DNA from: an uncultured Chthoniobacteraceae bacterium
Lineage (GTDB): Bacteria; Verrucomicrobiota; Verrucomicrobiia; Chthoniobacterales; DYNR01
Reading direction: 5' to 3'
Assembly (NCBI GenBank): GCA_964595865.1
Contig: CAZQRL010000006.1
Span: forward strand, 71,738 to 135,737
DNA length: 64,000 nucleotides
The translations under genes were made by a program, and so were the position numbers. The first letter of the stretch is position 1, and each line of letters opens with the position of its first letter. The notes beneath the pieces were generated by a model. It was not told the DNA's origin. It saw only the letters and a list, made by a program, of their open reading frames with translations, and searched no databases. Below, piece by piece: positions 54,955 to 64,000 of this stretch.

Positions 54955-55845
54955 ATGGACCTCGACGGACTCACCAAGCGACTCCTGACTTCCTATGAGA
55001 CCCTCGGAGGGCTCAACCATCGGGAAGTTGGCAATATGCCTTCCAAACAAGCGGTGGCCGAGATTTGCGAACTCCTGCTACGTCTTTTTTTTCCCGGATT
55101 TCACGACGAAAAGGCGCTGGAAGAGCGTCAACTCCTGGAGCTCACCCGGCTGCGCCTGCGCTCTTTGGAAGAAAAGCTCGGTGAGGAAATTTGCAAAAGT
55201 CTGCGATCCACGGAGCGGGATTGTCCTCGAGCCAAAGCCACGGCCCTCGCAGCGGAATTCTTGGAGGGCTTGCCTTCTCTGCGTGAGCTACTCGCTACCG
55301 ATATCACCGCAGCGTATGAAGGCGACCCAGCCGCCACCGGCCTGGAAGAAATCATTCTCGCCTACCCTTCGATCGAAACAGTGGCCATCCAACGTGCGGC
55401 CCATCGCCTCTATCGCGCCGGAGTGCCCCTCCTGCCCCGCGTAATGACCGAGTGGGCCCATGCCCGCACCGGCATTGATATCCATCCCGGTGCCAGTCTC
55501 GGAACCCACTTCTTCATAGACCACGGCACCGGGGTCGTAGTCGGCGAAACCTGCCGGATTGGAAATCGGGTTAAACTTTACCACGGAGTCACTCTGGGAG
55601 CCCGCAGCTTCCAGCGCGATGATGCTGGGAAGATTGTCAAAGGCGGTAAAAGGCATCCCGATGTGGGGGATGGGGTGACGATTTATCCGAACTCCACGAT
55701 TCTGGGTGGCGAAACCACCATTGGCGAAGGCACCACCATCGGCGCCAACGTTTTCCTCATGCAAAGCGTGCCGCCGAAATCCTTGGTCTTCCTCGAAGAG
55801 AGGCAAGTGCAGATCATTCCCAAAAAGGAACGTTCCCTGGCATGA
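54955..55845 (+). CDS. cysE: Serine O-acetyltransferase
   Basis: AYEGDPAA, HARTGIDIHPGA, FIDHGTGVVVGET, KRHPDV hexapeptide region. Confidence 0.9.
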   Translation: MDLDGLTKRLLTSYETLGGLNHREVGNMPSKQAVAEICELLLRLFFPGFHDEKALEERQLLELTRLRLRSLEEKLGEEICKSLRSTERDCPRAKATALAAEFLEGLPSLRELLATDITAAYEGDPAATGLEEIILAYPSIETVAIQRAAHRLYRAGVPLLPRVMTEWAHARTGIDIHPGASLGTHFFIDHGTGVVVGETCRIGNRVKLYHGVTLGARSFQRDDAGKIVKGGKRHPDVGDGVTIYPNSTILGGETTIGEGTTIGANVFLMQSVPPKSLVFLEERQVQIIPKKERSLA

Positions 55846-56408
55846 GTTCGGTATTTTCTTCCGCCCTTCCTCCTCCCCCCAGCAAATCTCGTTCTGGTCA
55901 ACGCCGCGACCCAATGTTGGAGCTCCTTGTGGACGCCCTGCTGCAGCAGGTCCACTGTCCAGAACTCCTCGGACGGGTTTCCGTTTGGTGGTCCACCCGT
56001 TTGCGTTCCACCGCCGGTCTCGCTTCCCATGCGGAACGACGCATCATTCTCAACGCCGCCCTCCCGCTGATTAGCGAGGCCGAAGTGGACCGGACGCTGC
56101 GTCACGAGTTGGCCCATCTCGTCGCCCAATCCCGCTCCCGCCGCCGCATCGCACCCCATGGCCCGGAATGGAAACAAGTCTGCGCCGAGCTCGGGCTGCC
56201 CGGTGAAGCGCGCTGTCACCAACTGCCCCTGCGCCGCCGTTTCCTCCCTCGCCGTTTGCTCTACGTGTGCCCTTCCTGTGGAGCGGAAGTGCGCCGAGTG
56301 CGCCCGCTGCGTCGCCAGGAGGCTTGCCTGGCCTGCTGCCGCAAGAAAAACGGTGGCCGCTACCATCCTGCCTTTCGCTTGCAACTCCGTTCCCAGCCGG
56401 AGGCATAA
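55842..56408 (+). CDS. SprT-like zinc metalloprotein
   Basis: RLRSTAG, TLRHELAHL, HGPEWK, CxxC...CxxC zinc ribbon. Confidence 0.85.
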   Translation: MSSVFSSALPPPPSKSRSGQRRDPMLELLVDALLQQVHCPELLGRVSVWWSTRLRSTAGLASHAERRIILNAALPLISEAEVDRTLRHELAHLVAQSRSRRRIAPHGPEWKQVCAELGLPGEARCHQLPLRRRFLPRRLLYVCPSCGAEVRRVRPLRRQEACLACCRKKNGGRYHPAFRLQLRSQPEA

Positions 56409-56418
56409 ACTCCTCCTC

Positions 56419-58218
56419 ATGCCGCGATACTCCGAGGAAAGCATCCGTCGGGTTGCCGAAGCTAACGACATTGTCGAGGTCATCGCCACCTACCTGCCCC
56501 TCAAACGCGCGGGCAGTGCGTTTAAGGGCCTTTGCCCCTTTCACAAAGAGAAGACCCCATCTTTTACGGTGAATCCTGCCCGGCAGAGCTATCACTGTTT
56601 TGGCTGCCAAGCTGGTGGGGGGGTGATTCGCTTTGTCATGGATTACGAGCGCATCTCTTTCACCGATGCTTTGGTGAAACTGGCCGATCGCGCCGGGATT
56701 CGCCTTATTGAGGAAACGGGCGGAGGAAATACCAACCGCGAGGAGCGCCCTCGCCTCCTCGAGCTCCACCGCTTGGCCACCAGCTTTTTCCAGAAGCAGC
56801 TCTTCAAATCTCCTGCCGCCGCAGCCGCACGATCCTATCTCAAGAGTCGCGGGTTTGATGAGAAAGTCGCGGAAAGTTGGAGCCTGGGCTACGCACCAGC
56901 CGCTCCGGATGCCTTTGCCCAACACGCCACCAAAGCTGGCTTTCACCCAGCGGAATTGGTCAAAGCCGGACTTTGCTTCGAGAACGAACGCGGCCGCGGC
57001 CTTACGGATCGCTTTCGCGATCGCGTCATGATTCCCATTTGCAACGATTATGGCGACGTCGTCGCCTTCAGCGGGCGGGTTCTCGATCCCGGGGCCTCTC
57101 CGGCTAAATACATCAACTCCCCCGAAACTCCTCTATTCTCCAAAGGCCGCCTCCTCTTTGGGCTGCACAAAACCAAGCGCGCCCTCATGCAGGCCGGAGA
57201 GGCCATTATCTGCGAAGGGCAATTTGATCTCATCTCCCTTTATGAGGCCGGCATCCAAAATGTCCTCGCCCCGCAAGGCACTGCCTTCACCCCCCATCAG
57301 GCCACCTTGCTCAAACGATTCGTGCCGCGCGTGGTGCTTTGCTTTGATAGTGATTCCGCAGGGCAAAAAGCCGCCGACCGCTCCTTGCCAGCCCTTCTGG
57401 CGCGGGAAATTTCCGTCCGCATCCTCTTGTTGCCGACGGGTGAGGATCCCGATTCCCTGGTCCGGCGCGAGGGCGGGGAGGCGTTCCGGTTGCGTGTGGA
57501 GCAAGCCGCCGATGTTTTTACTCATAAAATTACCCAGGCCCGCAGCTCCGGAGCCCTGGCCACCCCAGTCGGCCTGGCCGCGCTCACGAAAGAACTGGCT
57601 GGGCTGCTGCGTCTGCTGCCGGATCCCATTTTGCAAGACGCGCTGCGAAACCAAATTGCGGCCGCTCTGCAGGTGGACCCGGGGCATGTCTTGTCTCTGA
57701 TGCGACAAAGCAAGCCCGCCATCGTCGAGGCGGAAGAAGCCCCAGAACCTACTGCCGCAGAGGATGCTGCACCCCTCGAACTCCCCGAAGGCTGCCTCTT
57801 TCTTTGCAAAGCCGCGCTCTGCTCGGCAGAAGTCTGCCAGTGGCTGGCCGTGCAGCAGAGTCCGAGCATCCGGGATCTCGGGCCGGATTTTTCCCTCTTG
57901 CAAAAAATCGTGCAATTTGGCTGTTCCGCCGATCCGGCCTCCCCAGCACTCCTGGCCCTTTGCTCCCCGGCAGAGCAGTCCACCCTCGCGCTGCTCAATA
58001 CCCGCCAACCCCCGCGCGATCTGCTCCCGGCCACCACTTCCACCTGGAATGGCCTCGTCGCCCACCACCTGCGCCACCTCATCCAAAAAACCAAAAATCA
58101 GCTTCTTGACCGGTCTCTAACCCCGCAGAAAATCGTGGAAATTCAGAAAGAATTACTTGACCTACATCGGCGCCTGCAGAATTTTGCAGGGCTTCCCTTG
58201 GCAGACCCCACAGAGTAA
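56419..58218 (+). CDS. dnaG: DNA primase
   Basis: [11 protein letters not shown]...CFGC zinc finger, [30 protein letters not shown]. Confidence 0.97.
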
Positions 58219-58255
58219 CTTCTGCACCAACCCCGGCTCTCTTCGGCTTCCTACT

Positions 58256-60181
58256 TTGAAAACCACCAAGAAACCCGCTCCGTCGCCTAAACCCTCCTCC
58301 ACCCAACCGTCGAAATCCCCGGCGAAAACCACCCCGAAAAAATTGGCTGCCGCCAAGGCTCCAAAGCCCGCCAGCAAAGCCGCGGCTCCAGAGCCGAACA
58401 AAGCTCCCGCCCAGAAAGCTGCGAAATCCCCCGAGGGCTCAAGCAACAAATCCTCGACCAAGGCCGCTTCCAGCAAATCCCCGGAGAGGAAAAAAGCCAC
58501 CGCTCCCTCGGCCGAAAACAACCTCACTCTGGAAACCCCGGAGAAATTCGACCTGCAAAAATTCGTGCAGGAAAAAGTGCGTGAGCTGATCAAGCTCGCC
58601 AAAGAACAAGGCTACGTCACCTTCGATGATCTCCAAGAGGTCCTCCCGCCAGATATCACCGATCCAGAGGCCATTGACGCCATTGTTTCCCAGCTGCGCA
58701 GCGTCGAGATCGAGCTCATTGATTCCTCGGATGTGGATCATGGTCCAAAACCCAAGAAGGAAGAGGAACGCGACGAAAAGGCCGACAGCAAACTCGACAT
58801 CCTGGACGACCCGGTGCGCATGTATCTCAAGCAAATGGGGCAAGTCCCACTGCTGACCCGGGAGCAGGAAGTCGAAATCAGCAAGCGCATCGAGGACGCC
58901 GAGACCCAAGTGCAAAATATCCTCACCCGATTTGGCTTCATCGCGGAGGCCCATCTCGACCTGGCCCACAAGCTCATGGACATGCGCGAACGCTTCGACC
59001 GCGTGATCATGGACAAAAAAATCGAAAGCCGGGAGCGCTACATGAAGTTTCTCCCGAAGCTCTGTCAGGCTCTCGAACGCGAATCACAACGAGCCACCGA
59101 AGCCTTCGGGCGCTATTTCGCCCACCGTCACTCCAAAGCCGCTGAGCCCGACCTCAAGGAGTTCCAAGCCGCTCTATCCTCCCTGCAAAAGCTCTACCCG
59201 AAGTTTTTCTTCAAGCAGAAGGTCATTGAGGATTTCGTGATTCTCGCCGACGAAAAAGCCCGCACCCTGCGCAATCTCCACGCCGAGCATCAGCGGCACG
59301 CAAAATCGGATCATCCCGATGCCGCGAAAATCAAACGCAACCTCGCCCACCAGCTGCGCGACTTGGAAAAACGCGTCTGGTCCGCCACCGAAGACTTCCT
59401 CGAAACCCACCGCGAGCTGAAAGAGTGGCATCGTAAGGCCCTCCGGGCGAAAACCGAGATGGTAGAAGCCAACCTGCGCCTGGTCATTTCTATCGCCAAA
59501 AAATACACCAACCGCGGCTTGTCCTTCTTGGACCTCATTCAGGAGGGCAATATGGGCCTGATGAAGGCCGTGGAGAAATTCGAATATCGCCGTGGCTACA
59601 AATTTTCCACCTATGCGACTTGGTGGATTCGGCAGGCCATTACCCGGTCCATTGCGGACCAGGCCCGCACCATTCGCATCCCGGTGCACATGATTGAGAC
59701 CATCAACAAACTCATCCGGGTGCAAAAGCAGCTGGTGCAAGAATACGGCCGCGAACCCACCCCGGAGGAAATCTCCGAGGAAATCCAGCTGCCCGTCGAG
59801 CGCGTGCGCGCCGTGCTGAAAATGGCGCAACAACCCATTTCCCTGCAAGCCCCCGTGGGCGATAGCGAAGATACCAGCTTCGGGGACTTTATCGAAGATA
59901 AGTCTGCCGAAAACCCTGCTGACCAAGCGGCAATCGTGCTGCTCAAGGACAAAATCAAAGACGTCTTGGACACCCTCACCGATCGCGAGCGCGCGGTCCT
60001 CGAGCAGCGCTTCGGCCTCGTAGATGGCTACAGCCGCACCCTAGAAGAAGTCGGCCGACAATTCAAAGTCACCCGCGAACGCATCCGCCAGATTGAAGCC
60101 AAAGCCCTGCGGAAGATGCGCCACCCCACCCGCATCCGCCAGCTGGAAGGCTTCCTCGAACCTCAGGATATCATCGCCTGA
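58256..60181 (+). CDS. rpoD: RNA polymerase primary sigma factor with Lys/Ala/Pro-rich N-terminal extension
   Basis: [55 protein letters not shown] start at 58256 is inferred. Confidence 0.95.
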
Positions 60182-60240
60182 TTGCTGCAGGCTCGACTTT
60201 TTCTCTTTTCCCGACGATTCCCTGAGCCGCCAATCCACTT

Positions 60241-60576
60241 ATGAACTCACCCACCGCACCCAATCCCGCGACCGAGCAACCCATCGAGCTTGCCGGGGCG
60301 GAGGCGATTTACTCCAACATGTGCCGCGGGGTGATGACCTCAGAGGAAGTTATTTTAGATTTTGCCTTGAACCCGAATATCAACGGCCGGGTGCTCGATG
60401 AGCCAATCCAGGTCAAGAGCCGCGTGGTCATGAGCTTTTCCTCAGCCAAGCGCCTTCTCCACCTCTTGCACGCCATGGTCAGCAAACATGAGCAGACTTT
60501 CGGCGAGATCATTCTCGATCTTAACCAGCGGGTAAAAAAAGCATCAGACTCCTCTTCGGCAGCCCCTATCGCGTAA
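60241..60576 (+). CDS. DUF3467-family protein
   Basis: YSNMCRGVMTSEEVILDF...RVVMSFSSAKRLLHLL...HEQTFG. Confidence 0.8.
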   Translation: MNSPTAPNPATEQPIELAGAEAIYSNMCRGVMTSEEVILDFALNPNINGRVLDEPIQVKSRVVMSFSSAKRLLHLLHAMVSKHEQTFGEIILDLNQRVKKASDSSSAAPIA

Positions 60577-60627
60577 CGCTCCCCTCCGACATCTTCCTCT
60601 GCCTGACCTGCCAACCCTCCCTGCCGC

Positions 60628-62607
60628 ATGACCGCCCAAGAGCAGCAAATCCTCTTTGAGCGGACCAAAGCACGCATCGAGGGAGCCGTGCGAGTCTTTA
60701 GCGAGCTCGCTCGCACCTGCCTGGACCCGGCGGTTTTCTTCCCGCGCTTTGTTGAAACGGTCGTGGAGTGTCTCTCCGCCCAGGGAGGTGCCCTCTGGTT
60801 GGAACGCCCAGGCCACCACCTGGAAAAAGTAGCGGCGCAAAACTTCGAGTCTTTGCTTTACTCGGATAACGATCGTCAGCGAAATTCCGTAGATGCGGTC
60901 TTGCGGCAGACCGTGCAGCACAAAAAATCTTGCATTGTTGCGGCAGGCGAACCCAGAGCGCCTTACCCGGCTCCGACCGAAGGCGAAGTCGTCAACCTGA
61001 CTCCCTCTCCCATCTTCTATGTGCCGGTTTTCACCGGCGACCGCGTAGCAGCAGTCCTGCAAGTCTGGCTGCGAGAAGCCGGAGATCCCAAAACCTACAG
61101 CGACATCTTGGCATTCATCGCCAATCTCTGCGGCCAAGCGGGGCAGTTTTTCCAAAACTACACCAAAGCCCTGCAAAGTCGGCAGAATGAGGAGTTGCAT
61201 CAGCTTTTGCGCATGCAGAGCTCGCTGCTTGGGCAACTCGATCCCAAGGAGGTGGCCCTGATTCTGGCGAACTACTCCAGCGACCTGCTGCCCGCGGACT
61301 TGGCCTGTGTCTTCCGTCGCCAAGGCCGGAAATACAAAATCTTCACCGCCTCCAACCAGGAAGTCGTGGATCTGCGCAGCCAGCAGGTCTTGGCCCTCAC
61401 CGCGTTGGTCAATTCTTTGCCTCCTTTCCCGCAAGACCAGGTGTTGCTCCTCTCGGCGGATGCTTCCGCTCCGGGTGCTGAGTCAAATCTTTCCCCGCTC
61501 TTTGGCACCGCCGGGGTAAAGCACTTGGTCGCCCGCCCGATCTTTCCCACCGCTCCTGGAAGCTCCCCTTCGCCACACCGGGACTTCCTCTTAGTCGCTT
61601 TCCGCAACGACGATCCACCCTTCGCTCCCACTGCCAAAGCCTCCATTACCCGCCTCACGGATGCCGCCGGCCGCAGCCTGGACGCGGCACACCACCATCA
61701 CCTTCTCCCGGCTCGGCCAGTCCTTTCCGCCCTCAGCCGGGCGCGCCAAGCGGTTCTTGCCGGGCGCGGACGCCCTCTTTTCCTCTGGATGAGCCTGGTT
61801 ATCATCCTCCTGCTGGCGGCCTTCCTTGCCCCTTATCCGCTGCGAATCACCGCCGAGTGCGAAGTGCGGCCTGCTTTGCTCACGCAGGCAGTGGCTCAGG
61901 CCCAGGGAAAAATCCTGGAGGTCCGGGCACGGGAAGGCGAATTCGTTGAAGCTGGGCAGGTGCTGGCGCGCTTAGACGATACGGATTACCGAACTCAGCT
62001 GGCCATTCTCGCCCAACAACAACAACGCTGGCAAATCGAAGCCGCTCGCGCCCAAACCATTGGCAACGAAGCGGAGCGCAAACTGGCCCAAATCAATGCC
62101 CAGCGCGAAGCCGAAGCCTACCGTCGGGTCGAGTATCTGCGTCAACGCACCCTCATCCGCGCCCCTAAGCCGGGCATCATCACCTCGAAAAACCTCGCCA
62201 ACCGTGAAGGACAGTTCATCGAAGTTGGTCAGCCTTTCGCCGAAATTGCCGACCGCGATCAATTCGAAGTCGTGTTGCGCATCAAGCAGGCCGACATTGG
62301 ACAGCTCCTGCGCGCCCTGCAAGACCAAGGCGAACTTCCCGTGCGCTTTGTGCTCCACTCTCACGCCACCCAAAGCGTGCGCACCACTCTGCACAACTCC
62401 GTGGAGATTAGCCAACTCCCACAAATCTACCACGGCCAAAGCTACTATCTTGCAGTCCTCACCTTTCCATCCGACAGCCCGTTGCACGAACTCCTCAAGC
62501 CCGGCTACACCGGCAAAGCCAAAATCCGCCTCGGCACCGCGAATTTCGCCTACGCGCTCACTCGGCCGTTTATCAACTTTCTACGGGTCGAATTTCAATG
62601 GTTCTAA
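60628..62607 (+). CDS. GAF-like domains fused to HlyD-type membrane fusion protein
   Basis: N-terminal GAF-like segments, TM near residue 390, QGKILEVRAREGEFVEAGQVLARLDD and IRAPKPGII lipoyl half-motifs. Confidence 0.8.
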   Translation: MTAQEQQILFERTKARIEGAVRVFSELARTCLDPAVFFPRFVETVVECLSAQGGALWLERPGHHLEKVAAQNFESLLYSDNDRQRNSVDAVLRQTVQHKKSCIVAAGEPRAPYPAPTEGEVVNLTPSPIFYVPVFTGDRVAAVLQVWLREAGDPKTYSDILAFIANLCGQAGQFFQNYTKALQSRQNEELHQLLRMQSSLLGQLDPKEVALILANYSSDLLPADLACVFRRQGRKYKIFTASNQEVVDLRSQQVLALTALVNSLPPFPQDQVLLLSADASAPGAESNLSPLFGTAGVKHLVARPIFPTAPGSSPSPHRDFLLVAFRNDDPPFAPTAKASITRLTDAAGRSLDAAHHHHLLPARPVLSALSRARQAVLAGRGRPLFLWMSLVIILLLAAFLAPYPLRITAECEVRPALLTQAVAQAQGKILEVRAREGEFVEAGQVLARLDDTDYRTQLAILAQQQQRWQIEAARAQTIGNEAERKLAQINAQREAEAYRRVEYLRQRTLIRAPKPGIITSKNLANREGQFIEVGQPFAEIADRDQFEVVLRIKQADIGQLLRALQDQGELPVRFVLHSHATQSVRTTLHNSVEISQLPQIYHGQSYYLAVLTFPSDSPLHELLKPGYTGKAKIRLGTANFAYALTRPFINFLRVEFQWF

Positions 62608-63380
62608 TCCGCCTGCTCCTCCTCACCGCGATCCTCGCACCCTCCGCTTTCAGCCAAACTGAGGGGACGGATTCAGCCTCCCCACCTCCCAGCAAAATTG
62701 AGGGGCTCCTCAAACCCTACCGGGAAGTCCGGCTTGCCAGTCGAGCCCAAGGAGTCATTGCCGCAGTGGTCGAAGAGGGCACCGAACTCAAAGAAGGCGA
62801 AGTCGCGCTGCGCCTCGAAGACACCATGGAACGCCTGCAGCTGGCTCAGCAAACCAAGGTGGTCGAAATGCGGGAATTCGAAAACGAAGCCAGCGCCGCT
62901 CTCGGCAAATCCGCCGCCATCTCCCGCATCGAGGCCATGGAAAAGACCATCAACCTCGAAGTCGCCAAAATCCTCCAAGGCCAAGCCCAGGAACTCCTCG
63001 ACCGACGCACGGTTCGCGCTCCCTTCGCGGGCGTGGTCACGGAACGCCTCCGCTCGGTCGGAGAAGCTGTGGACGAGTTCGTTCCAGTTCTCTCCTTGGT
63101 GCAGATTGATCAACTGGCTTTTGAAGCCTTTTTGCCGGCTGAATTTATTACACAAATCCATCCTGGAGATAAGATTGTGCTATATTTTCCGATTTTTTCT
63201 GGTAAATCCTTTGACGCCACCGTAGAGCGCGTATCTCCGGTCGTTAACCCGGCCAGTGCGGAATTCAAGGTGCGCCTAGTCATTCCGAACCCGGAGCGGC
63301 AGCTGCGCGCAGGACTCTCCGGCTATTTCTTTCTCAAGGCCCCCACCACCGCGACCGCAGGCTTACCCACCGCGCCATAG
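62598..63380 (+). CDS. Periplasmic adaptor (MFP) subunit
   Basis: Signal peptide; LASRAQGVI, VRAPFAGVV, VSPVVNPASAEFKVR, LRAGLSG. Confidence 0.85.
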   Translation: MVLIRLLLLTAILAPSAFSQTEGTDSASPPPSKIEGLLKPYREVRLASRAQGVIAAVVEEGTELKEGEVALRLEDTMERLQLAQQTKVVEMREFENEASAALGKSAAISRIEAMEKTINLEVAKILQGQAQELLDRRTVRAPFAGVVTERLRSVGEAVDEFVPVLSLVQIDQLAFEAFLPAEFITQIHPGDKIVLYFPIFSGKSFDATVERVSPVVNPASAEFKVRLVIPNPERQLRAGLSGYFFLKAPTTATAGLPTAP

Positions 63381-63411
63381 GGCCAATTCCGCCCGCACGA
63401 ATCCCTGCGCA

Positions 63412-64000
63412 ATGTCCGACGCAGCCTCCAGCTCCCCCCGCCCTTCCTCCCCTGCGGAGGATCCGGCCCGCCATGTCTTCCCTCCTCTCCGCAAGGATTT
63501 GGTCGAGGTCCGGCAAAAATACCTTGGTCGCACCTATGTTGTCCTGAAAAATCCGATTAGCTTGGCCTACTTTCGCCTCCAGGAGGCCCATTACGAGGCG
63601 GCTCAGCTATTCGATGGGCAAACATCCTCCCAAAAGTTGCTCGAGCGGCTTGCCCAGACTTCGCGTTATTGGCGAGCCCTAGCCCGGGAGCAGGCGCTGC
63701 AAGAGCTCACCGCTCTGGGGCGGCAACTCTCGATGGGGGGGCTTCTGCAAATCCGAGGCGGTTCCGCAGTCGCCCGGAGTGAGCATCTCAAAAAGCTCAA
63801 AAAATCCCGTTGGTTAGAGCTCGGCATCGGACAGGTGCTTTATTTCCGCAAGTCCTTGGTGGATCCGGACAAATTCCTCACCCGCATCACCCCTTTTTTC
63901 CGCCCCCTGTTCACCCGCACCTTCATCCTTCTCACAGGAGTGCTATTCGCGGCCACTCTTGTGGCCGTGCTCCGCCAAGGGGATCAGTTGGCGCACCAAG
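63412..64000 (+). CDS. N-terminus of an M50-peptidase-like / PqqD-like membrane protein (truncated by window edge; not in ORF track)
   Basis: Manual translation: PPLRKDLVEVRQKYLGRTYVVLKNPISLAYFRL...FDG...VLYFRKSLVDPDKFL...TM; no stop before the window end. Confidence 0.65.
   Translation, partial: MSDAASSSPRPSSPAEDPARHVFPPLRKDLVEVRQKYLGRTYVVLKNPISLAYFRLQEAHYEAAQLFDGQTSSQKLLERLAQTSRYWRALAREQALQELTALGRQLSMGGLLQIRGGSAVARSEHLKKLKKSRWLELGIGQVLYFRKSLVDPDKFLTRITPFFRPLFTRTFILLTGVLFAATLVAVLRQGDQLAHQ

What the first reader, a model, noticed from the sequence alone, without database searches (positions are those of the whole stretch)
60241..64000. DUF3467 - GAF/MFP - MFP - M50/PqqD-like cluster: atypical secretion system start
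Seen: four tightly spaced co-oriented genes. They encode a small DUF3467 protein, an MFP with a long cytoplasmic GAF-like N-terminus, a second signal-peptide MFP, and a membrane protein starting with a PqqD/RRE-like segment. No ABC ATPase, RND pump or TolC is visible before the window ends. From recollection, not verified here, such multi-MFP plus M50-like cassettes often sit near giant repetitive proteins. Inference: a type-I-like exporter in which an M50-fold membrane protein replaces the ABC transporter, GAF domains sense a ligand, and DUF3467 acts as chaperone or adaptor.
Basis: partly seen in the sequence, partly recalled or inferred. Interest (0 to 1): 0.65.

Follow-up and report, generated by a model that had tools for sequence, protein, structure and literature searches.

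The report
Pump-less adaptor-protease export module
These four genes are a real, conserved operon for the membrane core of a secretion-like machine that was noticed in genome comparisons in 2015 but never tested; it probably reads, trims and exports large proteins carrying an N-terminal "LE-x-LE-x-RIAPA" tag, and this copy has no dedicated motor protein.

Summary
After a terminator-like hairpin behind rpoD lie four tightly spaced genes. They encode DUF3467, a GAF-TM-HlyD adaptor, a signal-peptide HlyD adaptor, and a 732-aa protein that runs past the window end.

That fourth protein is a three-way fusion: a PqqD/RRE-like cytoplasmic domain, an intact HExxH/NPxxxxDG M50-type intramembrane protease, and a third HlyD adaptor. 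No ABC, RND or TolC gene follows within 16 kb.

The adaptor triad is conserved in most of 80 Verrucomicrobiota and Planctomycetota loci. It matches the "T1SS-related / secondary SecA_DEAD" module of Kamneva et al. 2015 (PMC4452313). This genome has only the housekeeping SecA, so it is a variant without the second SecA.

- DUF3467 co-occurs with the protease fusion in the order: 38 genomes have both, against about 8 expected.
- In several lineages, large proteins with an N-terminal LE.LE.RIAPA or LE.R.LLA motif and no obvious hydrophobic signal sequence lie next to the module.
- This genome has three such ORFs elsewhere, one of 3906 aa.

Best reading: a leader-guided processing and export machine for these proteins. 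No function has been tested. It is a member of a described but uncharacterised kind.

The parts
60176..60192 (+). Terminator-like hairpin (GCCTGATTGCTGCAGGC followed by a T-run) overlapping the rpoD stop codon. It suggests that g1-g4 form their own transcription unit.
   Evidence: L002 414-430. This is a consensus match only.
60241..60576 (+). g1: a 111-aa cytoplasmic DUF3467 protein. The N- and C-terminal tails are disordered. The core is three beta-strands followed by a long helix. It is the only DUF3467 gene in the genome.
   Evidence: Pfam PF11950, 61.8 bits. Single copy. AF2 pLDDT 78. No significant PDB fold match. No hydrophobic segment.
60628..62607 (+). g2: a 659-aa adaptor. It has a cytoplasmic N-terminal region of about 370 aa with a GAF domain (33-174) and an unassigned second part, one TM helix (about 380-409), and a periplasmic HlyD-type membrane-fusion domain.
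   Evidence: Full-length homologues lie upstream of g4 in about 50 loci.
62598..63380 (+). g3: a 260-aa periplasmic HlyD/RND-type adaptor with a Sec-type signal peptide that is not a lipoprotein signal. Its start overlaps the end of g2 by 10 nt.
   Evidence: TIGR01730, 114.5 bits against a cut-off of 94.9. Hydrophobic segment at 1-20. Conserved position between g2 and g4.
63412..64000 (+). g4 (first 196 of 732 aa; the gene would end at window-equivalent 65610, which is G000:C6:135149-137347). Domain order:
- PqqD/RRE-like cytoplasmic head, about 20-115.
- Polytopic M50-type metalloprotease, with HEFGH at 220-224 and NPLLKFDG at 315-322.
- TM helix, about 441-463.
- HlyD adaptor with an alpha-hairpin, helices 510-534 and 545-567.

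Best explanation
**What it is.** The four genes encode the inner-membrane and periplasmic core of the conserved module first described from genomes by Kamneva, Poudel and Ward (2015): a GAF-HlyD protein, an M50-HlyD protein and a third HlyD protein.

**Proposed mechanism (inferred).**
1. Large proteins made without an obvious Sec-type signal carry a short N-terminal leader ending in (L/I)E-x-L-E-x-R-I-A-P-A.
2. The cytoplasmic RRE/PqqD-like head of g4 binds that leader.
3. The fused M50 intramembrane zinc protease clips it.
4. The three different adaptors (g2, g3 and the C-terminal part of g4) build a periplasm-spanning tube that docks on a TolC-type channel encoded elsewhere. The best candidate is the orphan 786-aa OEP on contig C4.
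5. The small cytoplasmic DUF3467 protein acts as a cargo-holding or targeting partner.
6. The GAF region of g2 gates or regulates the machine.

**Energy source.** Relatives carry a truncated SecA in the operon as the presumed motor. This genome has none, so energy would have to come from the housekeeping SecA, from the proton-motive force, or from an unknown partner.

**Shown here.**
- The domain architecture and the intact catalytic motifs.
- Conservation of the adaptor triad.
- DUF3467 linkage.
- Adjacency of motif proteins, TolC and truncated SecA in relatives.
- Three motif ORFs and a single SecA in this genome.

**Inferred, not shown.** Binding, cleavage, transport, stoichiometry and energy source.
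For: **Architecture.**. The catalytic residues H220, E221, H224 and N315-P316...D321-G322 are invariant in 40 homologues that fall to 26% identity.

**RRE head.** PqqD and TfuB1 are the top PDB hits for a profile of the domain. 10 of 19 homologous heads match Pfam PqqD.

**Conservation.** The triad is conserved in most of 80 loci of Verrucomicrobiota and Planctomycetota.

**Published description.** The paper describes the same protein set and proposes the M50 protein as the membrane component.

**Partners in relatives.**
- A TolC-like gene lies directly upstream of g4 in L041, L051, L061 and L072.
- A truncated SecA lies next to g4 in L012 and L045.

**Motif proteins next to the module.** Proteins of 400-1900 aa carry the motif 8-44 residues from a candidate start Met and have no obvious hydrophobic signal sequence. 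They lie directly beside the module in:
- L005 (two), L006, L007 (two) and L010 (two).
- L051, L061, L067 and L072 (two).
- Seven Isosphaeraceae loci, where DUF3467 is the gene immediately upstream of, and co-oriented with, the motif protein.

**Co-occurrence in the window's order (301 genomes).**
- The strict motif occurs in 19 genomes, and 17 of them have a g4 homologue. The base rate is 49 of 301. Fisher p = 3.7e-13. The reversed-pattern control gave 0 hits.
- DUF3467 and g4 co-occur in 38 genomes against about 8 expected (p = 8e-28). They lie within 6 kb on the same contig in at least 20 genomes, next to g4 homologues of very different identity, from about 50% down to about 30%.

**This genome.** A motif HMM built only from other genomes ranks exactly three ORFs on top:
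- C8:136116-147905(-), 3906 aa.
- C9:59229-61388(+).
- C9:77911-78474(+).
Against: - No experiment exists for any member of the module.
- This genome has no truncated SecA and no ATPase in the operon, so a transport mechanism lacks a visible energy source.
- The candidate cargo genes and all four OEP genes are unlinked to the operon.
- 32 of 49 g4-positive genomes in the order lack the strict motif. Variant motifs are presumed but were not tested.
- The NCBIfam LEPR-XLL model does not reach its cut-off on these N-termini (11.1 bits against 17).
- The window's own g4 head is not recognised as PqqD by Pfam.
- The co-occurrence statistics ignore phylogenetic relatedness.
- DUF3467 also occurs in Thermus, Bacteroides and Methanosarcina (control), so it is not confined to this module.
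Confidence: 0.55

Rival explanations
1. Regulated intramembrane proteolysis rather than transport. g4 would be a site-2-type protease that cleaves a membrane or cytoplasmic regulator. The GAF domain and the adaptor domains would serve as sensors or scaffolds, and nothing would be exported.
For: - The M50 core has intact motifs.
- A GAF domain is present.
- No motor is encoded.
- The operon follows rpoD.
Against: - The rpoD neighbourhood is not conserved.
- No sigma or anti-sigma partner recurs among the neighbour clusters.
- Three TolC-docking-type adaptors are conserved, and TolC genes are fused into the operon in some relatives.
- The genome has a separate canonical RseP with PDZ domains.
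Confidence: 0.13
2. A RiPP-type small-peptide maturation and export system, like the daptide or YydH/LiaK HExxH proteases. The RRE would bind a short precursor peptide, M50 would remove its leader, and the adaptors would pass the peptide out.
For: - The best NCBIfam matches of the protease part are daptide_HExxH (174 bits) and RiPP_HExxH_LiaK (55 bits).
- The head is RRE-like.
Against: - Both NCBIfam matches lie far below their cut-offs of 300 and 225 bits.
- No modifying enzyme or conserved short-precursor gene appears among the conserved neighbours in 80 loci.
- The recurring neighbours are large motif-bearing proteins.
Confidence: 0.08
3. Spare periplasmic adaptors that serve a conventional ABC, RND or MFS pump encoded elsewhere. 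The protease domain would be an unrelated add-on.
For: - All three periplasmic parts resemble MacA, AcrA and EmrA.
- Other pumps and four OEP genes exist in the genome.
Against: - The triad stays together without a pump in about 80 loci of two phyla.
- The RRE-M50-adaptor fusion is invariant.
- Where a nucleotide-hydrolysing partner is linked, it is a truncated SecA rather than an ABC protein (PMC4452313).
Confidence: 0.05

Closest known systems
Conserved 'type-I-secretion-related / secondary SecA_DEAD' genomic module (Kamneva, Poudel and Ward 2015, PLoS One, PMC4452313), for example M. extorquens AM1 META1p2399-2402
   Same: The protein set is the same: a GAF-HlyD protein, a Peptidase_M50-HlyD protein and a third HlyD/biotin-lipoyl protein. 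The phyla are the same (Verrucomicrobia, Planctomycetes). The OEP gene is optional and often encoded elsewhere.
   Different: - There is no secondary SecA_DEAD gene in the locus or anywhere in this genome.
- The module here carries DUF3467, which the paper never mentions (0 occurrences).
- The paper does not describe the RRE-like head or the link to N-terminal-motif proteins.
Classical type I secretion systems (HlyB-HlyD-TolC; LapBCE for giant adhesins)
   Same: It has HlyD-family adaptors with an alpha-hairpin, probably uses a TolC-type channel, and its candidate cargo is large, repetitive and Gly-rich.
   Different: - It has no ABC transporter and uses three different adaptors instead of one.
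- An intramembrane metalloprotease with a leader-binding head sits where the ABC/C39 component would be.
- The candidate signal is N-terminal, not C-terminal.
- No RTX repeats were detected in the cargo by Pfam.
RiPP leader-recognition plus HExxH intramembrane proteases (daptide protease NF041824; YydH/LiaK NF058609) and RRE proteins PqqD and TfuB1
   Same: It has an RRE-type head and an HExxH membrane protease of the same broad family.
   Different: - Its scores are below the family cut-offs.
- It is fused to a periplasmic adaptor.
- No RiPP tailoring genes are present.
- The likely substrates are proteins of hundreds to thousands of residues.
LEPR-XLL domain proteins (NCBIfam NF012209)
   Same: The candidate cargo has a short N-terminal LE-x-R motif on very large, otherwise unannotated proteins.
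   Different: The local variant LE.LE.RIAPA scores 11.1 bits against a cut-off of 17 on one N-terminus and nothing on the others. No function for the motif is recorded in the literature searched.

Membership tests
Kamneva-2015 T1SS-related / secondary SecA_DEAD module | GAF-domain protein with HlyD/biotin-lipoyl domains | tested here: met
   g2: GAF_2 at 31.1 bits (cut-off 28.6), plus HlyD_3 and HlyD_D23.
Kamneva-2015 T1SS-related / secondary SecA_DEAD module | Peptidase_M50-like membrane protein carrying a HlyD domain | tested here: met
   g4: HEFGH and NPLLKFDG motifs, a weak Pfam M50 match (18.5 bits) and HlyD_D23 at 58.7 bits.
Kamneva-2015 T1SS-related / secondary SecA_DEAD module | Third HlyD-domain protein in the same locus | tested here: met
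   g3: RND_mfp at 114.5 bits.
Kamneva-2015 T1SS-related / secondary SecA_DEAD module | Secondary (truncated) SecA_DEAD protein in the neighbourhood | tested here: not met
   The genome, estimated 100% complete, has one SecA_DEAD match, in a 1014-aa frame that gives a 994-aa canonical SecA. Truncated SecA queries from L012 and L045 hit only that gene. This copy is therefore filed as a variant without the second SecA.
Classical type I secretion system | ABC transporter with a nucleotide-binding domain adjacent to the adaptor | tested here: not met
   There is none within 4 kb upstream or 16 kb downstream, and none is conserved in 80 related loci.
Classical type I secretion system | TolC-family outer-membrane factor available | tested here: met
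   The genome has four OEP genes elsewhere. An OEP gene lies directly upstream of g4 in four related loci. No physical partnership was tested.
Site-2 protease / peptidase M50 | HExxH in one TM helix and NxxPxxxxDG in another, within a polytopic core | tested here: met
   Both motifs are invariant. The AF2 model shows a helical membrane core. The Pfam score is below the gathering threshold (18.5 against 27.2), so this is a distant member.
RiPP recognition element (PqqD-like) | Three-stranded sheet plus helical winged-helix fold, homologous to PqqD | tested here: inconclusive
   - The domain profile hits PqqD 3g2b (E 0.008) and TfuB1 (E 0.018).
- 10 of 19 homologous heads match Pfam PqqD.
- The model shows three strands (31-37, 40-46, 53-57) followed by four helices.
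- The window's own sequence gives no Pfam match.
- The fold search of the full-length model returned only adaptors.
RiPP recognition element (PqqD-like) | Binds a leader peptide | not testable with these tools
   This needs a binding assay or a complex prediction.
Daptide / YydH-LiaK RiPP HExxH proteases | Score above the NCBIfam cut-off, in a RiPP gene cluster | tested here: not met
   Scores are 174 against 300 bits and 55 against 225 bits. No RiPP genes are nearby.
DUF3467 (PF11950) | Pfam gathering score | tested here: met
   61.8 bits against a cut-off of 25.
LEPR-XLL domain (NF012209) for the candidate cargo | NCBIfam cut-off of 17 bits | tested here: not met
   The best score is 11.1 bits, on one of three N-termini. 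The genome-wide search found none. The resemblance is at motif level only.

The most novel reading that the evidence does not exclude
The RRE-M50-adaptor core, together with DUF3467, would be a self-sufficient and still unnamed protein secretion pathway for proteins with an N-terminal LE.R leader. The variant seen here, in a complete genome with only the housekeeping SecA, would show one of two things: either the dedicated truncated SecA is dispensable, or the housekeeping SecA is recruited, possibly through DUF3467. In this reading, an element known only from RiPP biosynthesis serves as the signal receptor of a secretion system, and a site-2-type protease serves as its signal peptidase.
Probability: 0.3. 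Interest if true: 0.85.

Novelty: new member of a known kind. Interest (0 to 1): 0.55.

Why it matters
If the reading is right, many Verrucomicrobiota and Planctomycetota (over 580 loci among GTDB species genomes), and by the 2015 paper also some Proteobacteria, have a protein-export route that is missing from the standard catalogue of secretion systems. That route would use an N-terminal leader, an RRE-type receptor and an intramembrane protease.

It would also assign a first role to DUF3467 and to the orphan LE.R / LEPR-type N-terminal motif found on very large unannotated proteins.

This instance matters mainly because it has no second SecA. It asks directly where the energy comes from.

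As a discovery it is not new. The module was described in 2015, and earlier notes of this scan report it in about 40 other genomes.

Tried and rejected
**Searches that gave nothing usable**
- The Foldseek search of the full-length g4 model against the PDB returned only membrane-fusion proteins in the top 50. It could not test the RRE or M50 parts.
- The Foldseek search of the DUF3467 model gave no match below E 0.65. A SecB-like or other known chaperone fold is therefore not supported. The PDB sequence search was also empty.
- Pfam on the window's own g4 head gave no PqqD match. This was resolved only through homologues and a profile.
- A profile of g2 against the PDB found only adaptors and no GAF structures. 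The second half of the g2 cytoplasmic region, about 185-370, stays unassigned.
- Pfam and NCBIfam on the three candidate cargo proteins and four cargo proteins from relatives gave essentially nothing. The LEPR-8K model did not ring in the genome search, whose control was also silent.
- Literature searches for DUF3467, LEPR-XLL and M50/HlyD/RiPP found no functional work.

**Ideas considered and rejected**
- DUF4126 (g5) as part of the system. It is not a conserved neighbour.
- rpoD/dnaG linkage. It is not conserved.
- The 2756-aa amylase in the window as cargo. It has a signal-peptide-like N-terminus and no motif.


Full report
**1. What is there**

Downstream of dnaG (56158-58218) and rpoD (about 58157-60181), a terminator-like hairpin overlaps the rpoD stop (window 60176-60192). 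Four co-oriented ORFs follow, with gaps of 51, -10 and 31 nt.

- **g1** (60241-60576, 111 aa) matches Pfam DUF3467 at 61.8 bits.
- **g2** (60628-62607, 659 aa) has a GAF_2 match at 33-174, above the gathering score. It has one hydrophobic helix at 380-409 and a HlyD-type adaptor after it.
- **g3** (62598-63380, 260 aa) has an N-terminal signal-like segment and passes the RND_mfp cut-off.
- **g4** starts at 63412 and leaves the window.

The window is G000:C6:71738-135737. I fetched the continuation as L002.

**2. The fourth gene and what follows it**

g4 is 732 aa. Its parts, in order:

- Residues about 20-115 form a cytoplasmic head.
- Residues about 150-430 form a polytopic core, with HEFGH at 220-224 and NPLLKFDG at 315-322. 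Both motifs are invariant in 40 homologues that fall to 26% identity.
- A further TM helix follows.
- Residues 475-644 form a third HlyD adaptor.

NCBIfam's nearest models are the daptide and YydH/LiaK RiPP HExxH proteases, both far below their cut-offs. The AF2 model has pLDDT 87. Its periplasmic part superposes on MacA, AcrA, MexA and EmrA.

The head shows three strands (31-37, 40-46, 53-57) followed by four helices. Evidence on whether it is PqqD-like:

- Pfam does not call PqqD on the window's own sequence.
- A profile of 19 homologous heads has PqqD (3g2b, E 0.008) and the lasso-peptide RRE TfuB1 (6jx3_B, E 0.018, nearly full length) as its best PDB sequences.
- 10 of the 19 heads match Pfam PqqD individually, best E 3.1e-7.

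Downstream of g4 come a DUF4126 membrane protein and then, convergently, a GPH-family symporter, a CBS-DHH pyrophosphatase and leuA. Further on are an amine oxidase and carB. There is no ABC, RND, MFS-pump or OEP gene.

**3. Conservation**

g4 has more than 1800 relatives in the protein collection. The nearest are labelled Chthoniobacterales or Terrimicrobiaceae, and several carry the JGI name "putative peptide zinc metalloprotease".

Two complete-genome contexts at 49% identity show the same four genes (DUF3467, a 650-aa adaptor, a 280-aa adaptor and the M50 fusion) between unrelated flanks.

A scan of GTDB species genomes found at least 583 loci. The 80 kept span two phyla:

- Verrucomicrobiota: Chthoniobacterales, Prosthecobacter and Opitutales.
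- Planctomycetota: Isosphaeraceae, Gemmataceae, Singulisphaera, Paludisphaera, Schlesneria, a Kuenenia-labelled MAG, Phycisphaerae and Sedimentisphaerales.

An iterated HMM search of the ORFs in these loci gave the following:

- A full-length g2 homologue, including the cytoplasmic region, lies next to g4 in about 50 loci.
- A second adaptor lies there too. It is short as here, or about 700 aa in Gemmataceae.
- Where neither is seen, the contig usually lacks the flank.

DUF4126 and the rpoD/dnaG neighbourhood are not conserved.

**4. It is a described module**

The literature search led to Kamneva, Poudel and Ward 2015 (PMC4452313). They found that "secondary SecA_DEAD" genes in Planctomycetes, Verrucomicrobia and some Proteobacteria sit in a conserved locus. 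The locus also holds a GAF-HlyD protein, a Peptidase_M50-HlyD protein and a further HlyD protein, sometimes with an OEP gene.

They proposed that the truncated SecA supplies ATP hydrolysis and the M50 protein supplies the membrane component in place of an ABC transporter.

Earlier AI notes of this scan report the same module in about 40 genomes and propose giant "LEPR-XLL" proteins as its cargo. I treated these notes as leads and tested them here.

**5. Tests made here**

*(a) Motor.*
- The genome is estimated 100% complete, in 20 contigs. It has one SecA_DEAD gene, the 994-aa canonical SecA.
- Truncated SecA genes do lie next to g4 in L012 and L045. They match SecA residues 24-258 and 421-745, so the preprotein-binding insert and the C-terminus are missing.
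- Used as queries, these truncated genes hit only the canonical gene in this genome.
- Across 301 genomes of the order, those with the roughly 50%-identical cassette almost all have a single SecA_DEAD match. One family whose genomes carry two or three g4 paralogues has up to five matches.
- This is therefore a real variant without the second SecA.

*(b) Channel.*
- Four OEP genes lie elsewhere in the genome.
- In L041, L051, L061 and L072 an OEP gene abuts the start of g4.
- The best match to those genes in this genome is an orphan 786-aa OEP on C4. It sits beside a canonical PDZ-bearing RseP, with lutBC on its other side and no pump nearby.

*(c) DUF3467.*
- The genome has one copy.
- In the order, 49 genomes have g4 homologues, 50 have DUF3467 and 38 have both. 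About 8 would be expected by chance. Fisher p = 8e-28, not corrected for phylogeny.
- The two genes lie within 6 kb on the same contig in at least 20 genomes, next to g4 homologues of very different identity, from about 50% down to about 30%.
- In Gemmataceae locus L045, DUF3467 directly follows g4.
- In Isosphaeraceae it lies 5-8 kb away.
- Its model is three strands and a long helix (pLDDT 78) with no PDB relative.

*(e) Cargo: motif proteins beside the module.*
- Scanning the loci for N-terminal LE.R motifs found proteins of 400-1900 aa directly beside the module. They occur in L005 (two), L006, L007 (two), L010 (two), L051, L061, L067 and L072 (two), and in seven Isosphaeraceae loci.
- The motif reads (L/I)E-x-L-E-x-R-I-A-P-A or LE-x-R-x-L-L-A-(P/A/S). 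It lies 8-44 residues from a candidate start Met, and no obvious hydrophobic signal sequence precedes it.
- In the seven Isosphaeraceae loci, DUF3467 is the gene immediately upstream of, and co-oriented with, the motif protein.

*(f) Cargo: motif across the order.*
- The strict motif, searched as a degenerate DNA pattern, occurs in 19 of 301 genomes of the order.
- 17 of these 19 are g4-positive (p = 3.7e-13).
- The reversed-pattern control found nothing.

*(g) Cargo: candidates in this genome.*
- A motif HMM built only from other genomes ranks exactly three ORFs on top.
- The first is a 3906-aa protein with 27% Gly and no Pfam domain, at C8:136116-147905(-).
- The second is a beta-helix-like protein of about 650 aa, at C9:59229-61388(+).
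- The third is an apparently frameshifted fragment, at C9:77911-78474(+).
- None is near the operon.
- NCBIfam's LEPR-XLL model does not reach its cut-off on them.

**6. Reading**

The best-supported explanation is a leader-guided processing and export machine, working as follows:

1. The RRE head of g4 binds the LE.R leader.
2. The fused M50 protease removes it.
3. Three adaptors bridge to a TolC-type channel.
4. DUF3467 assists on the cytoplasmic side.
5. The GAF region regulates.

Only the anatomy, the conservation and the genomic associations are shown. Every mechanistic step is inferred. I put 0.55 on this reading. I put about 0.95 on membership in the Kamneva-type module as a variant without the second SecA.

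The rival explanations are signalling by regulated proteolysis (0.13), small-peptide RiPP-like export (0.08) and spare adaptors for a conventional pump (0.05).

The main weaknesses are:
- There is no visible energy source in this genome.
- The cargo and channel genes are unlinked to the operon.
- 32 g4-positive genomes in the order lack the strict motif.
- The statistics are not corrected for phylogeny.

**7. Verdict**

The interpretation repeats an existing, untested hypothesis.

This instance is a member of a described but uncharacterised kind. Its notable features are a whole genome without a second SecA, a conserved DUF3467 partner, and three unlinked motif-bearing candidate substrates.

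Noticed in passing
G000:C8:136116-147905 (-), outside the window (L095 3114-14834): A 3906-aa ORF with 27% Gly plus abundant Ala and Ser. It has no Pfam or NCBIfam match and carries an N-terminal LEALEPRIAPA motif about 44 residues from the first Met. A tail-specific protease gene (S41, PDZ) lies directly upstream on the same strand.
   Followed up: partly
G000:C9:77911-78474 (+), outside the window (L096 19230-19778): A 182-aa ORF that starts like the other motif proteins (MAKQFTAELLTTAILEALEPRIAPA..., followed by a 'LKLREA' segment). After about 110 residues it degenerates. An overlapping frame (from C9:78108) continues with beta-helix-like repeats. This is probably a frameshifted gene or an assembly error.
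   Followed up: partly
G000:C4:138161-140518 (-), outside the window (L097 7161-9518): An orphan TolC-family gene whose 786-aa product has a roughly 300-aa N-terminal extension before the OEP repeats. It is flanked by lutBC on one side and, on the other, by a YfiH-like laccase-domain gene, a canonical RseP (M50 with PDZ) and ispG, with no pump or adaptor nearby. It is the closest relative in this genome of the OEP genes that abut g4 in Opitutales loci.
   Followed up: partly
L019, L021, L030, L035-L038, L049, L073 (Isosphaeraceae), about 18-22 kb in each locus: The same gene order recurs on one strand: a SecA gene (matching canonical SecA through its C-terminus and cut by the locus end), a Kdo-transferase-like gene, DUF3467, then a 1300-1700-aa subtilisin-like protein with an N-terminal LE.R.LLAP motif. 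This unit is convergent with the adaptor/M50 operon. The proximity of DUF3467 to what looks like the housekeeping SecA may be meaningful or may be mere synteny.
   Followed up: no
L064, L065, L071, L074, L079, L080, L084 (Gemmataceae and relatives), directly upstream of the g2 homologue: A different small helical protein of about 117-186 aa (for example MAPKPLLHPILVNEALTRGLADPEARLLVEWLVDQ...) occupies the position that DUF3467 has here. It shows no similarity to DUF3467 and was not annotated.
   Followed up: no
window-equivalent 65676-66770 (L002 5914-7008): A DUF4126 membrane protein (148 bits) with a roughly 190-aa C-terminal extension that has no Pfam match follows g4 after 65 nt. It is not a conserved neighbour of the module.
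   Followed up: partly
window 58157-58600: The rpoD reading frame has an N-terminal stretch of about 120 aa rich in Lys, Ala, Pro and Ser before the sigma-70 regions. The listed TTG start overlaps the end of dnaG by about 60 nt, so the true start is uncertain.
   Followed up: no
window 55842-56408 (+): A 188-aa ORF with an HELAH motif and a CxxC...CxxC zinc-ribbon-like tail, which looks SprT-like, lies just upstream of dnaG.
   Followed up: no
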